Below, in pieces: positions 29,273 to 35,320 of a stretch of 64,000 nucleotides of DNA. A program made the translations under genes and the position numbers. The first letter of the stretch is position 1; each line of letters starts with the position of its first letter. This stretch comes from Macrostomum lignano (Eukaryota). Under the pieces are notes generated by a model that saw only the letters and a list, made by a program, of their open reading frames with translations, made no database searches and had not been told where the DNA came from. Location: contig NIVC01001098.1 in assembly GCA_002269645.1 (NCBI GenBank), forward strand, positions 1 through 64,000, written 5' to 3'.

Positions 29273-29332
29273 TTTCTTCTATGGTAAATTTTTTTTAAAA
29301 TAAATAATTTAGAAGATGTGTCATTTTGGGAC

Positions 29333-30290
29333 AGTAGAAGGCATGAGGGGGCTTTTGGGACAAAAATTTTCACATCCTCCATAATCCCATTAAATCCATC
29401 TATATTATCCCCAACAGAATCAGAAAAAAGGGGGGTCACACTCGCTCACAAAACGTCCTCCATAATCCCATTAAATCCATCCATATTATCCCTGACAGAA
29501 TCAGAGCATAACAGGTGTCCTACTTGTTCCGAAAACTTCGAACATAATCCCATTATAATCCACTGACATCCACCCATAGCATCTTCGAAACAATCAGAAA
29601 ATTATCTGAATTCTTCTCCCCACATTCAATCCGCAACGTGCTACCACATCCCTAAAACTTTAAATCCCCTAACCCAGGGTCCTTACCCTTTGAAAAAAAT
29701 TAAATTCTCAATAAAAAATGTTTCCAGTTGTCTCTCCAGGTTCCTACAAGTATTATACTCAGCCTCATCCATTGTACAAATCCAAGTACCGATGCAAACT
29801 AGAATGCAGCGAGTACATGAGAAATTATTGGCCTGGCGTTAATATCAATGTACCTAATATTAATCTAGCTCTCCAAAGACACTGGTTTCATAAGTATGGA
29901 GTAACCTACGTAAAAGATTACGAAAGCTACTATAACTTTGCAGAAATCATTAGGCTATTGCGTTAAAAAACTGAAAGGCCAAAATCCTTTTCATTCTGGC
30001 CTCGCCCGAGGCCAAAATCCTTTGCATTTTGGCCTTGCCCGAGGCCGAAATCGTTTGCATTTTGGCCTTCCCTCAGACGGAATTCTTCCTCGGCTGGGCT
30101 CAGTTCAAGGACTCGCCCACGCCCTCATACTACCAGAATGGGGTAAGAGATTTTGAGTACACATGCGCGCATTTTTTCATACCACTCTATTCTCGGCAAG
30201 CATACTTAAAAGGGAACGCATTTTCTCACATTCTCTCAATGATCAACGTCAATACAAACTCTTCACCGTTGAAATCAACACCCACCCCAT
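29333..30290 (+). repeat. TIR T2 (right TIR of B, flipped)
   Basis: Starts AGTAGAAGGCATGAGGGGGC at 29333 and runs into the penton 3' end. Confidence 0.9.
29718..29966 (+). CDS. TIR-encoded 82-aa hypothetical protein
   Basis: AAAAAATG start; homologous ORF present in all four TIR blocks. Confidence 0.65.
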   Translation: MFPVVSPGSYKYYTQPHPLYKSKYRCKLECSEYMRNYWPGVNINVPNINLALQRHWFHKYGVTYVKDYESYYNFAEIIRLLR

Positions 30291-31088
30291 CTTCAGTCTC
30301 AAACTGTAGTACAATCTCGTGAATCTCCTTATTACTCAATACAACTCTTTTCACTGGATTTGGTTTCTCTACCACCATCTGTCCTCCAGCTACAGAGTTG
30401 TAGATGTTGTACAAAATATTCGTTCGCTTTCCCTTAAATACCCAATCAAGACTGAGATTACTTCTGATTAGAATATTCAAACCCTTTACAATGTCTGCTA
30501 TATTGGGTGCTAAGAACAAACCGCGTACACTTTCCCGGACCATTCTAACAGTCCCCGATGCTTGAGTGGCGGTCCGCGCCGCGGATTCTGCCTTATAAAC
30601 TTTCTTCTCGAATCCCAGTTCCCTATACCAAGTGTCATCTTTAAACTCAACCTCCGCATCTTTGTGAACTTGCATGACCACTCTCATTACAGTGAGATCA
30701 TAGGCTAGTTTGGCAGGGAACAGTTTTTTATCTGGCTTACTCATATCAGGTGTCTCAAAATGGCCTCTTTTAGTAAAGACGTTTTCTAGAAAGTAATTGT
30801 AGGTATCCACACTCTGCGTGCTCACAGGGAATACCACAGGTTCTGCTGCTGCACCTTTCCATTTGTAATAAAACTTATTATTTGCTGCGTCACATTAGGA
30901 ACGTTTGACCAACCAGTGAATTCGTTAAGATAGACATGGTAATTAGCGCCTGGATCCAGGCTAATCGCCTGCTCTAATTTTTCAACAAACATCCCGTTTG
31001 AGTCATTTATTCGCCCAGTTATTATAATAGGAATGCTCTCCTTGGAGTGCGAAATAATATTGTTTAGTCTTTCAGCAATCGCTTCCAT
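30226..31088 (-). pseudogene. Minor capsid (penton-like), element B, one frameshift
   Basis: Matches the intact 47167-48030 ORF; C-terminal VVEKPNP...DFNGEEFVLTL. Confidence 0.88.
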
Positions 31089-31108
31089 TTTTTCACATAA
31101 AAAAATAT

Positions 31109-32395
31109 TTAAACTTTACTGGATGAATTGTTGATCATGTTAAGCTTCACCTTCCTCTCAAATGCATAGATAATGTACAGGTCCACGGGTGTTGCGGTAG
31201 TCCTTTCAATGTTAGTCACGATATTCACAGGGCTGTTATCAGTAGGCATTTGTCTGGCAGACACATCAGCGCCAAACATCGGATATAGAGTTCCATATTG
31301 AAGAGCAGTGATAGCAATTCCATTGTTCTCTTTCACAGCCAAGTCGACCAACTCGCTATAAAATTTGCTAATCTTGTTCTGACTGAAATCTCCATTTTGT
31401 GGCAGTGCAGGGTAAAGATTATCACTGATTTCATGCTGAATGGACCGCACGTCTCCATGCATGTAGCGTATAATGCTATTTGGGTTTCTCATGTTAATAA
31501 TGATATACCTTGGATTGCTGCATGATCCCTCTTTAATGCAGATGTTTGTTCTAGTTTCGTTTCGCTCATCTCGACACATGTAGGCTGTGTATGCAACATC
31601 AATGTCCTTCTCTATTGCCTTGAGATAATCCGCTTTTAGTGCAGTCTTTGGCTCAATGACTTCCAAATACAGCTCGATTCCGGTTAGCTTCACAGCCATC
31701 CCAGTGTGGTCCGCCCCAGTCCACAACACTCTACTGCGATCATCTCTAGTCAGTCTAAATGTGTAGCTAAAGTTACTAGTCAGTCGATTAAATGTATTAC
31801 AGAATCCACTCATGAATCTCAATGGTACAAATACATCAACAGACCGATACTGCGGGTTCTTAGCAGCATCATCAGCACCTTGCAATGCATAGTTGTATCT
31901 CTTCTTCCTCTTTTTATAGCCACTGTCATTGGTGTCTCCTTCTTTTTCATCTGCGATAAAACCCGAACCACTTCCCAACTGAATAAAATCAGGATTCTCG
32001 ATCAAACAATGAGCGTCATAGACAATTCCAAAGTTGGCGATTCGCTCCAACTCAGTGCTCCCATTCGATACACTAAACTCCTTGAACATGTACGCCCAAA
32101 AGTTACTAATCAGAGCCACATCCGCATCATGCTTGTCAACGTTAGCACGAGCCGCATCTGCACCACCTTTTGTCTTGAATTGAAATGTCATATGAAAGCC
32201 GCTCTTAAGACTGTGCACACTAACCAAAGACGAGCATCCATTGTATGTAAATGTCAGTGTTTGGCCAGGACCAAGATTAGTTTCATTCTGATTTTCCTGA
32301 CTGGGAACTCTAACTTGTGTCGCTTTGATTGTGCTATCATCACTCAAAATAGGCTTGTTAATTTTGTAGAAAACTGGTGTCAGTGGGTCGTTCAT
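31109..32395 (-). CDS. Major capsid protein, element B (428 aa, intact)
   Basis: Near-identical to 45860-47146; Polinton MCP motifs FSVSNG..ELE, VPLRFMSGF, LYPMFG.D. Confidence 0.85.
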   Translation of the reverse strand: MNDPLTPVFYKINKPILSDDSTIKATQVRVPSQENQNETNLGPGQTLTFTYNGCSSLVSVHSLKSGFHMTFQFKTKGGADAARANVDKHDADVALISNFWAYMFKEFSVSNGSTELERIANFGIVYDAHCLIENPDFIQLGSGSGFIADEKEGDTNDSGYKKRKKRYNYALQGADDAAKNPQYRSVDVFVPLRFMSGFCNTFNRLTSNFSYTFRLTRDDRSRVLWTGADHTGMAVKLTGIELYLEVIEPKTALKADYLKAIEKDIDVAYTAYMCRDERNETRTNICIKEGSCSNPRYIIINMRNPNSIIRYMHGDVRSIQHEISDNLYPALPQNGDFSQNKISKFYSELVDLAVKENNGIAITALQYGTLYPMFGADVSARQMPTDNSPVNIVTNIERTTATPVDLYIIYAFERKVKLNMINNSSSKV

Positions 32396-32425
32396 TTTTT
32401 AACTAAAAATAAAATAAAATAAGAA

Positions 32426-33631: not shown

Positions 33632-33647
33632 TTTATTCCAAGTAAAA

Positions 33648-34255
33648 ATGCCGATTATTTTTGAGAAAGACGTGGACAAATACTATGACAAAGAGGAACT
33701 TAATCTTATTAAACGCAGATCTGGACTTTTCCCTGCAGGCCACTATCCAAGAAAAGAACGCTCCGGGAATAGCCTTGCCGATTTGATCGTTCAAGGGGCC
33801 AAGATTTTTAAGGTCATTGGAGAGAACAAAGAGAACATCAAGAACGTTGCCGAAGCGGCTGGCAGTGTAGTCACAGCAGCTAAGAAGATTAAAGATACGG
33901 TTAATGAAACCCGGAAATCAATACCAGATATTCAACCCCTTGCACCGAGTGCAGATAGTGTCGATCCAACCATCTACGCAAAGATGAGAGCTGAATATAA
34001 GAAAGGAGGCAAAGAGAAAGAGAAGAGAAAAGAGACAAAGAGAACATCAAGAACGTTGCCGAAGCGGCTGGCAGTGTAGCCACAGCAGCCAAAAAGATAA
34101 AGGATACTGTAACACCTAAACAAGAGATTCAGCCTCCACTGGCCCCGCTGGCCCCGCTGGCTCCGCTGGCCCCAAATCCAGACAGTGTGGACCCTGCAGT
34201 CTATGAGAAGATGAGAGCTAGCATTAAAAAAGGAAGTGGTTTCAATTTTGACTAA
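33648..34255 (+). other. Small core-like gene followed by a duplicated variant C-terminal half
   Basis: GAGAACATCAAGAACGTTGCCGAAGCGGCTGGCAGTGTAG occurs twice (~33830 and ~34040); the second half matches the gene in C. Confidence 0.7.
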
Positions 34256-34296
34256 AGGGTACTTTCCGAGGGTACAAGAAATGCAAAGGTACGAGA

Positions 34297-34389
34297 CTAG
34301 TCCCAAAATGACATACCTAAGTCCCAAAATGACTCATCTAAGTCCCAAAATGACACATCTAAGTCCCAAAATGACACATTTAAGTCCCA
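34297..34389 (-). repeat. 21-bp tandem repeat TTAGATGTGTCATTTTGGGAC (4 units plus duplicated TGGGAC)
   Basis: Inverted relative to the 5-unit array at 44054-44162; the first unit remains at 29309-29332. Confidence 0.92.
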
Positions 34390-35320
34390 AGTAGAAGGCA
34401 TGAGGGGGCTTTTGGGACAAAATTTTTCACATCCTCCATAATCCCAATAAATCGATCCATATTGTCCCCGACAGAATCAGAAAAAAAGGGGGTCGCACTT
34501 ACTCCAAAAACTTCGAACATAATCCCATTAAATCCATCTATATTATCCCCGACAGAATCAGAAAAAAGGGGGGTCACACTCGCTCACAAAACGTCCTCCA
34601 TAATCCCATTAAATCCATCCATATTATCCCTGACAGAATCAGAGCATAACAGGTGTCCTACTAGCTCCGAAAACTTCGAACATAATCCCATTAAATCCAT
34701 CCATAATATCCCTGACAGAATCAGAAAAACTCGCTCACAAAACGTCATCCATAATCCTCCTAACCTATCCTTCTTCCTCCACGACAGAATCAAAGCATAA
34801 CAAGTGTCCTACATCATCCACTGACATCCACCCATAGCATATTCGAAACAATCAGAAAATAATCTGCATTCTTCTCCCCACATTCAATCCAAAGCGGCGA
34901 AACCAAATCCCTAAGACTTTAAATTATCAGCGCAGGGTCCTTACCCTTTGAAAAAAAAATTAAATTCTCAATAAAAATGTTTCGAGTTGTCTCTCCAGGT
35001 TCCTATTATACTCAGCCTCATCCATTGTACAAATCCAAGTACCGATGCAAACTAGAATGCAGCGAGTACATGAGAAAATATTGGCCCGACGTTGATATCA
35101 ATGTCCCTAATATTAATCTAGCTCTCCAAAGACACTGGTTTCATAAGTATGGAGTAACCTATGTAAAAGATTACGACAGCTACTATAACTTTGCAGAAAT
35201 CATTAAGCAATTGCGTTAAAAAACTGAAAGGCCAAAATCGTTTTCATTTTGGCCTCGCGCGAGGCCGAAATCGTTTGCATTTTGGCCTTCCCTCAGACGG
35301 AATTCTTCCTCGGCTGGGCT
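34390..35320 (+). repeat. TIR T3 (left TIR of C)
   Basis: Minisatellite, small ORF and GGCCTCG hairpins; inverted match to 48035-48741. Confidence 0.92.
34977..35219 (+). CDS. TIR-encoded 80-aa hypothetical protein
   Basis: MFRVVSPGSYYTQPHPLYKSKYRCKLECSEY... Confidence 0.65.
   Translation: MFRVVSPGSYYTQPHPLYKSKYRCKLECSEYMRKYWPDVDINVPNINLALQRHWFHKYGVTYVKDYDSYYNFAEIIKQLR

What the first reader, a model, noticed from the sequence alone, without database searches (positions are those of the whole stretch)
29327..34394. Integrase footprint: two TIR ends joined to one duplicated 6-bp target with inversion of the capsid module
Seen: TGGGAC|AGTAG at 29327-29337 and GTCCCA|AGTAG at 34384-34394; GTCCCA is the reverse complement of TGGGAC. 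In C the 21-bp array has 5 uninterrupted units. In B, unit 1 is left of T2 and TGGGAC plus 4 units lie inverted left of T3, so exactly 6 bp are duplicated and the penton-MCP-Q-rich-core block is flipped. Established: Polintons make 6-bp TSDs, and retroviral autointegration and Ac/Ds alternative-end transposition give such inversions. Inference: the integrase used B's right end and C's left end (or an autointegration circle later recombined) to insert into B's own repeat, producing the tandem B-C array.
Basis: partly seen in the sequence, partly recalled or inferred. Interest (0 to 1): 0.72.

Follow-up and report, generated by a model that had tools for sequence, protein, structure and literature searches.

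The report
Nested Polintons with a flipped insertion
A virus-like jumping element (a Polinton) left a clean insertion scar inside a close relative, and part of the pair is flipped; the scar is real, but the flip is most simply explained by later recombination between the two similar copies, a kind of rearrangement already known.

Summary
Two intact Polinton ends (AGTAG, 29333 and 34390) abut the two copies of a 6-bp duplication, TGGGAC, inside B's 21-bp array. The block 29333-34389 (a whole TIR plus the capsid module) is inverted. That is an integrase footprint, but it does not show that integrase made the inversion. I favour the last (0.5). The two junction ends are the best-matched TIR pair in the outer part (1 of 47 differences). 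B and C have exchanged sequence repeatedly, including about 580 bp inside the inverted arms. A Polinton-induced inversion with TIRs left as direct repeats is published for C. elegans eri-6/7. The inner TIR evidence is mixed, so the route is not settled. B and C are two lineages that diverged under purifying selection (dN/dS 0.10-0.26 in seven regions), not decayed sister copies. One extra finding: C's far end also joins family DNA (13 of 13 bp match to the TIR core), so all three intact ends sit in the family's own sequence.

The parts
18126..19450 (+). T1: left TIR arm of B. The outer ~35 bp (terminus) are missing. Includes 81-bp sub-repeats, core, 33-bp repeats and an inverted copy of the penton 3' tail
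   Evidence: no terminus remnant at up to 5 mismatches in 20 nt
20537..29332 (+). X': left body of B (PLA2-like, integrase, mu-like core protein, broken PolB, protease-like, broken ATPase); direct repeat of 35356-44077
   Evidence: 96.2% over 8837 columns; Pfam run on C's copies and on one B PolB piece
21060..22055 (+). rve integrase of B; open frame, conserved acidic residues kept
   Evidence: Pfam rve on the C copy
24064..28756 (+). near-identical tract shared with 38781-43499 (recent gene conversion, or an assembly effect)
   Evidence: 7 substitutions and 14 one-base indels in 4681 aligned columns
29314..29332 (+). unit 1 of B's 21-bp array, cut after GGGAC
29327..29332 (+). target duplication, copy 1 (TGGGAC)
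29333..30221 (+). T2: complete TIR from an intact AGTAG terminus, with right-arm inner sequence, pointing into the inverted block
30222..34383 (-). Y': inverted capsid module (putative penton 30226-~31088, MCP 31109-32395, Q-rich gene 32426-33631, small ORF with a 209-bp duplication, array units 2-5)
Evidence: DJR domain on C's MCP.
34384..34389 (-). target duplication, copy 2 (TGGGAC on the minus strand)
34390..35355 (+). T3: complete left TIR arm of C from an intact AGTAG terminus
35356..44058 (+). X: left body of C (PLA2-like 35324-35836, integrase 35866-36861, mu-like, broken PolB, protease-like, broken ATPase)
44059..44162 (+). uninterrupted 5-unit 21-bp array of C, between the small ORF and the ATPase start; reference for the target site
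44163..48034 (+). Y: capsid module of C in normal orientation (small ORF, Q-rich gene, MCP 45860-47146, putative penton 47167-48030)
46562..47143 (+). low-divergence stretch of MCP between Y and Y'; candidate old exchange tract inside the inverted arms
   Evidence: 3 of 124 synonymous sites differ, against 21 of 144 in the 5' half (split chosen after seeing the data)
48038..48741 (-). T4: right TIR, terminus AGAAG; the most divergent of the four TIRs
48742..48754 (+). T4's outer flank: exact 13-mer of the family's own TIR core, so a second junction into family DNA; a Helitron-like repeat follows it

Best explanation
Two steps. (1) A linear copy of one Polinton lineage was inserted by the rve integrase, in antisense orientation, into the 21-bp array of a related Polinton, with an ordinary 6-bp duplication. 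T2's and T3's termini are then the two ends of that one incoming element. The integrase footprint is shown; the nesting history is inferred. (2) Nesting placed the two ~5.5-kb right arms (capsid module plus TIR) as inverted repeats around the inner element. A later homologous crossover between them flipped everything in between. That turned one copy of the duplication around, left T2 and T3 as direct repeats and made the nest look like a tandem B-C pair (inferred). The crossover may lie in the 3' half of MCP or in the outer TIR.
For: Gives the observed order exactly (symbolic check). T2 and T3 differ at 1 of 47 terminal bases, against 4 of 47 for T3/T4 and 5 of 47 for T2/T4. In the next 175 aligned bases they differ at 3, against 7 for T1/T2 and 17 for T3/T4. 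3 of 3 informative outer sites group T2 with T3 and T1 with T4. T2 and T3 are identical over 64 nt at the end of the 33-bp region, where T1 differs at 3 (read by eye). B and C have exchanged sequence repeatedly: a 4.7-kb tract, 360 identical bases in the integrase gene (0 differences in 119 codons) and a low-divergence stretch in MCP inside the inverted arms. T4 is also joined to family DNA (13-mer; background 2 of 2695), so nesting happens here. Precedent: several Polinton insertions, an inversion attributed to recombination between them, and TIRs left as direct repeats at C. elegans eri-6/7 (PMC11414722, passages). No step requires integrase to cut chromosomal ends.
Against: The TIR core is mixed: 3 sites for T1/T2 + T3/T4, 3 for T2/T3 + T1/T4 and 8 for left versus right. 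Two of the three outer sites lie in a sub-repeat where T3 has an extra first unit carrying the T1/T4 state. I aligned T3's second and third units and left that unit out. Two of the three are CpG-type changes that can recur. T1's penton tail matches the T2-linked penton at 3 sites where the T4-linked one differs (by eye), which fits only a crossover in the outer TIR, or rival A. No single crossover point can be painted. The MCP split is post hoc, and such tracts could predate insertion. The outer duplication cannot be tested because T1's terminus is gone.
Confidence: 0.5

Rival explanations
1. A: reversed-ends transposition. B and C already lay in cis in the same orientation. Integrase took B's right end and C's left end, dropped the DNA between them and inserted both into B's array in the inversion mode.
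For: Gives the observed order in one step. T1 and T2 share a long inner arm (19272-19450 against 30114-30291, 95.5%) that T3 and T4 lack. 3 core sites group T1 with T2. Reversed-ends transposition gives inversions with target duplications in maize Ac/Ds (PMC3744419, passages).
Against: Outer TIR sites group T2 with T3 (3 of 3), and T3/T4 differ at 21 of 222 outer bases against 4 of 222 for T2/T3. The shared long inner arm may be ancestral, with separate deletions in T3 and T4 (inference). It needs an rve integrase to cut chromosomal ends. I recall that as proposed for Polintons but not demonstrated; searches listed no test of it (listings only).
Confidence: 0.2
2. C: a free linear element integrated into its own array (inversion circle), and the circle then entered a resident copy by one crossover in X.
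For: Gives the observed order and predicts T2 close to T3. A 4.7-kb near-identical tract lies in X. Inversion circles with both ends and a target duplication are described for Sleeping Beauty and piggyBac (PMC3952818, passages).
Against: The tract (7 of 4681 substitutions) is much younger than the decay elsewhere. The module that would come from the fresh circle (Y') is itself decayed: a stop, a frame break, a 209-bp duplication, and 9 derived amino-acid changes against 12 in Y. So the tract does not date the event. T1's penton tail fits Y' better than Y. Autointegration searches gave no Polinton case: 0 occurrences of the word in the 25 papers listed, and no Polinton title among the 20 listed.
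Confidence: 0.2
3. D: the junctions are real but their order is an assembly product: a flip at the inverted arms, or a splice through the 4.7-kb near-identical tract.
For: The tract carries 3.0 one-base indels per kb against 0.9 outside (14 in 4681, 7 in 7890; p=0.011). That looks like unpolished noisy long reads in a repeat. At least two PolB frame breaks are shared by both copies inside it.
Against: An assembler would not invent two exact termini with a 6-bp overlap. The inverted arms differ by about 4% or more in most 250-bp windows, and the longest identical run is 179 bp, so reads should separate them. The two tract copies carry different indels.
Confidence: 0.07

Closest known systems
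Polinton/Maverick elements (PMC8097293 and PMC10748475, passages)
   Same: rve integrase, type-B polymerase, DJR capsid, A32-like ATPase and C5-like protease (both below Pfam cut-off), TIRs of about 0.7-1 kb, AG...CT ends, 6-bp duplication, about 14.4 kb
   Different: Both copies are decayed. The duplication is split and inverted inside the family's own DNA rather than flanking one element. Termini are AGTAGA/AGAAGA, not (AG)3 or (AGT)2. The best PolB relatives found are 46% identical or less, so the subfamily is unnamed here.
Polinton-induced inversion at C. elegans eri-6/7 (PMC11414722, passages)
   Same: Several Polintons at one locus, an inversion attributed to recombination between them, TIRs ending up as direct repeats
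   Different: There a host gene is inverted and rescued by trans-splicing. Here the inverted DNA is the element's own capsid module, and both copies of the 6-bp duplication survive. 'Target site' has 0 occurrences in that paper's main text; its supplements were not read.
Reversed-ends (alternative) transposition of maize Ac/Ds (PMC3744419, passages)
   Same: Ends next to the two copies of one target duplication, with an inversion
   Different: It uses a hAT transposase known to excise chromosomal ends. Use of ends from two elements is not shown here.
Autointegration inversion products of Sleeping Beauty, piggyBac and retroviruses (PMC3952818, passages)
   Same: Both ends joined to an internal site, with a duplication and inversion
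   Different: Those products are suicidal extrachromosomal circles. Here the structure is chromosomal and made of two lineages about 4-5% apart.

Membership tests
Polinton/Maverick | retroviral-like (rve) integrase | tested here: met
   Pfam rve E=3e-9, above cut-off, for 35863-36858; acidic residues 73, 132 and 167 kept in B, C and 8 of 8 relatives
Polinton/Maverick | protein-primed family B polymerase | tested here: met
   Pfam DNA_pol_B_2 at cut-off (26.2 against 25.8); 392 of 2982 candidates at E<=1e-20, many 1200-1400 aa; gene broken in both copies
Polinton/Maverick | double jelly-roll major capsid protein | tested here: met
   Pfam DJR-like E=1.2e-5, just under cut-off (25.2 against 27); 8 of 8 relatives carry PF21738
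Polinton/Maverick | packaging ATPase, cysteine protease, penton | tested here: inconclusive
   Pox_A32 E=7e-4 and Peptidase_C5 E=9e-3, both under cut-off and from broken frames; the putative penton has no Pfam family, and its 13 relatives are unnamed
Polinton/Maverick | TIRs of 100-1500 bp with AG...CT ends | tested here: met
   T3/T4 inverted match over about 700 bp; termini AGTAG and AGAAG; T1 lacks its end
Polinton/Maverick | 5-8 bp (usually 6) target duplication | tested here: met
   6-bp overlap at the T2 and T3 junctions; the outer duplication cannot be tested
Reversed-ends transposition product | target duplication split between the two junctions, with inversion | tested here: met
   also met by the other routes
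Reversed-ends transposition product | the two joined ends come from two different elements | tested here: inconclusive
   outer sites lean against (3 of 3), core split 3 to 3, inner arm leans for
Reversed-ends transposition product | enzyme able to cut ends in the chromosome; progenitor allele with donor DNA between the ends | not testable with these tools
   needs biochemistry and other alleles
Autointegration circle, recombined in | both ends and the target come from one molecule; single crossover in X | tested here: inconclusive
   T2 is close to T3, but the X tract is younger than the decay of Y'
Nested insertion plus inverted-repeat recombination | junction ends are the two ends of one element; crossover within the inverted arms | tested here: inconclusive
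   best-matched outer TIR pair; candidate tract in MCP; no unique crossover found

The most novel reading that the evidence does not exclude
The integrase of this family prefers its own family's DNA and made the inversion itself in one step, by reversed-ends transposition or autointegration. All three intact ends in the window join family sequence (two events). Both targets carry GGGAC, and the 21-bp array shares a 9-mer with TIR positions 21-29 (background 3 of 277 windows). B and C show similar decay (13 against 15 derived changes among 46 differences). In the boldest form, several virus genomes were stitched together by integrase before or during entry into the chromosome. It would be a sequence-level record of Polinton integrase acting on Polinton DNA; I found no such report in searches.
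Probability: 0.22. Interest if true: 0.65.

Novelty: new member of a known kind. Interest (0 to 1): 0.36.

Why it matters
How Polintons leave and enter chromosomes is still inferred mostly from sequence (one 2023 paper calls them primarily characterised in silico; PMC10748475, passage). A split, inverted 6-bp duplication inside a Polinton is a clean record of concerted two-ended integration into family DNA. If the route is nesting plus recombination, it is an ordinary rearrangement. It then serves as a warning that an apparent tandem pair with TIRs in direct orientation can be a flipped nest that TIR/TSD-based miners would misread. If integrase made the flip, or if self-targeting holds genome-wide, it would bear on whether Polinton integrase can cut chromosomal ends and on how elements cluster and exchange capsid modules. 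A count of all TIR junctions in the host assembly would test that cheaply.

Tried and rejected
(1) B and C as sister copies made by the event and then decayed: rejected. dN/dS is 0.10-0.26 with p<0.05 in 7 of 12 regions, 0.46 (p=0.08) in the mu-like gene, and the four regions in or beside the near-identical tract or the ATPase are uninformative, apart from PolB2 at 0.24 (p=0.03).
(2) TGGGAC as part of the terminus: rejected, three different flanks.
(3) Microhomology join through the 9-mer shared by TIR and array: rejected, because the 20 terminal bases outside the 9-mer are kept at both junctions.
(4) Plain insertion with a direct duplication around T2...T4: rejected, T4's flank is TTAGGG.
(5) Dating B against C to pair the halves: no signal. 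GC-to-AT asymmetry is not significant in any of 12 segments. Polarised amino-acid changes are 13 B, 15 C and 18 unclear, of 46. The list of stops is biased, because the frames were defined on C.
(6) The 4.7-kb tract as the scar of circle integration: weakened, it is younger than the decay.
(7) Search for T1's lost terminus and for the rest of the element that T4 landed in: neither found in the window.
(8) T4's TTAGGG flank as a telomere repeat: superseded by the 13-bp match to the TIR core.
(9) No tool named the host, and no third copy of this family was found (closest MCP 77%). The viral and metagenome contig collections stayed unchecked, and the bacterial and archaeal genome scan was not used. 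One literature search (adintovirus terms) did not finish, so that comparison is untested.
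Full report
Observation. The junctions are as described. TGGGAC at 29327-29332 abuts an exact TIR start at 29333, and its reverse complement at 34384-34389 abuts another at 34390. The 20-nt terminus occurs exactly at these two places only, and with 2 mismatches on the minus strand at 48741 (T4); T1 has no terminus. 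C's 21-bp array has five units. B has unit 1 cut after GGGAC on the left, and TGGGAC plus four units inverted on the right. The first full unit there starts with AA like C's unit 2, so the overlap is 6 bp. Self-BLAST of bases 1-51100 gives the order T1, X', target, T2, inverted Y', inverted target, T3, X, array, Y, inverted T4. The flipped block therefore includes T2.

What the elements are. C (34390-48741, 14.4 kb) encodes a PLA2-like protein, an rve integrase, an adenovirus mu-like core protein, a broken type-B polymerase, weak protease and A32-ATPase matches, and a DJR capsid protein (30 ORFs scanned). PolB relatives are 46% identical or less, the closest MCP 77% and the closest integrase 63%. 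No named host or third family copy turned up. TTAGGG repeats suggest an animal host, which is my inference. Published Polinton features are TIRs of 100-1500 bp and 5-8-bp duplications (PMC10748475, passages), and 6-bp duplications in vertebrate Mavericks (PMC8097293, passages). So the junctions are an integrase footprint.

B versus C. Outside one tract they differ by about 4-5%, and far more in the Q-rich gene. dN/dS is 0.23 for integrase, 0.21 for PolB-N, 0.13 for MCP, 0.26 for penton and 0.10 for the Q-rich gene. They are two lineages that diverged while functional. Both have since decayed to a similar degree: 13 B-derived, 15 C-derived and 18 unclear of 46 amino-acid differences in MCP, penton and integrase, with no GC-to-AT asymmetry. 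They have exchanged sequence repeatedly. 24064-28756 and 38781-43499 differ by 7 substitutions in 4681 columns. 360 bases of the integrase gene are identical. The 3' half of MCP has 3 of 124 synonymous differences against 21 of 144 in the 5' half (p=4e-4, split chosen post hoc). The long tract has more one-base indels (14 in 4681 against 7 in 7890, p=0.011) and at least two PolB frame breaks shared by both copies (near 24280/39030 and 25195/39945). I read these as unpolished long-read errors or a late conversion; reads would decide.

Mechanism. A symbolic check shows that three routes give the observed order. Route A: reversed-ends transposition with B's right and C's left end. Route B: antisense nesting with an ordinary duplication, then a crossover between the inverted right arms. 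Route C: an inversion circle recombined in through X. They differ in which TIRs belong together. In the terminal 47 bases T2/T3 differ at 1, T3/T4 at 4 and T2/T4 at 5. In the next 175 aligned bases T2/T3 differ at 3, T1/T3 at 6, T1/T2 at 7 and T4 at 15-18. Three of three informative outer sites group T2 with T3. Against this: two of those sites are in a sub-repeat where T3 has an extra outermost unit with the other state, which I left out of that alignment, and two are CpG-type changes. The core gives 3 sites for A's pairing, 3 for the other and 8 for left versus right. T1 shares an inner arm and penton tail with T2. No TIR pair is near-identical throughout. The lean is towards T2 and T3 being ends of one molecule (B or C), but it is weak. 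Route C's best support, the X tract, is too young: Y' carries a stop, a frame break and a 209-bp duplication. Route A needs chromosomal end cleavage by an rve integrase, which I recall as proposed but not shown. Route B uses only established steps, has a candidate exchange tract in the right place and has a precedent. I give B 0.5, A 0.2, C 0.2 and misassembly of the order 0.07.

An extra junction. The 13 bases outside T4 (48742-48754) match the family's TIR core exactly (48141; also 35110 and 18737 on the other strand). Such a match to C arose in 2 of 2695 control positions, and in 0 of 2695 against the TIRs alone. A repeat with a Helitron-like hairpin and CTAG end follows (label recalled, not tested), and the rest of that target element is not in the window. 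So T4 too was inserted into a family member, and both recoverable integration events here hit family DNA. The array also shares TTTTGGGAC with TIR positions 21-29 (3 of 277 control windows reach 9 bases). Two events cannot separate targeting from the ordinary piling-up of insertions in a repeat-rich region next to a satellite (51185-64000).

Comparison with what is known. In C. elegans, several Polinton insertions at eri-6/7 led to an inversion ascribed to ectopic recombination, with TIRs left as direct repeats (PMC11414722, passages; supplements not read). Reversed-ends transposition gives inversions in maize (PMC3744419, passages). Autointegration gives inversion circles with target duplications in Sleeping Beauty and piggyBac (PMC3952818, passages). 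Mavirus-like elements showed no sequence-specific integration (PMC8547959, passages). Nested insertions in the passages I saw on cryptophyte PLVs are retrotransposons (PMC12220804, passages; 12 of 14 places shown). PMC6431247 (passages) added only general description. Searches (listings and abstract starts only) showed no paper on a Polinton nested in a Polinton with a split duplication, or on Polinton autointegration. The library lacks most subscription papers.

Verdict. This is a real and well-preserved integrase footprint in a nest of Polintons. It is a new instance of known kinds of event; interest 0.36. The self-targeting or one-step reading has probability about 0.22 and would deserve about 0.65.

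Noticed in passing
window 48742-48754: T4's flank is an exact 13-mer of the family's TIR core: a second insertion into family DNA.
   Followed up: yes
window 24064-28756 and 38781-43499: 4.7-kb near-identical tract between B and C, rich in one-base indels and with shared PolB frame breaks; recent conversion or an assembly and polishing effect.
   Followed up: partly
window 29353-29361, 34410-34418 and 44059-44162: TIR positions 21-29 equal the core 9-mer of the internal 21-bp array, which sits just upstream of the ATPase start; possibly a shared protein-binding site.
   Followed up: partly
window ~1500-14150: A different, decayed Polinton-like element: rve integrase (35% identical to C's over 165 aa), DJR capsid, split ATPase, F5/8 type C domain protein; no PolB match among the ORFs scanned and no TIRs found.
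   Followed up: partly
window 1498-2250: ORF matching the Eco47II restriction endonuclease family above cut-off (E=1.5e-6) beside that element's integrase.
   Followed up: no
window ~6530-10380: GC-rich non-LTR-like insertion in the ATPase gene, with endonuclease and RNase H domains but no reverse-transcriptase match in the two frames scanned.
   Followed up: no
window 14149-16693, 48755-51017 and 2-202 (inverted): Dispersed repeat with a hairpin plus CTAG end (Helitron-like, label recalled), internal telomere-like CCTAAC runs and a 23-bp minisatellite.
   Followed up: partly
window 19231-20536 and 18856-19025: B's left arm has about 1.3 kb and 170 bp that C lacks, including an inverted copy of the penton 3' tail; most of it has no other match in the window.
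   Followed up: partly
window 32426-33631 versus 44621-45829: The Q-rich gene is far more diverged between B and C (dS about 2) than its neighbours (about 0.1), suggesting a swapped module.
   Followed up: no
window 51185-64000: 48-bp satellite array of about 268 copies running off the window.
   Followed up: no
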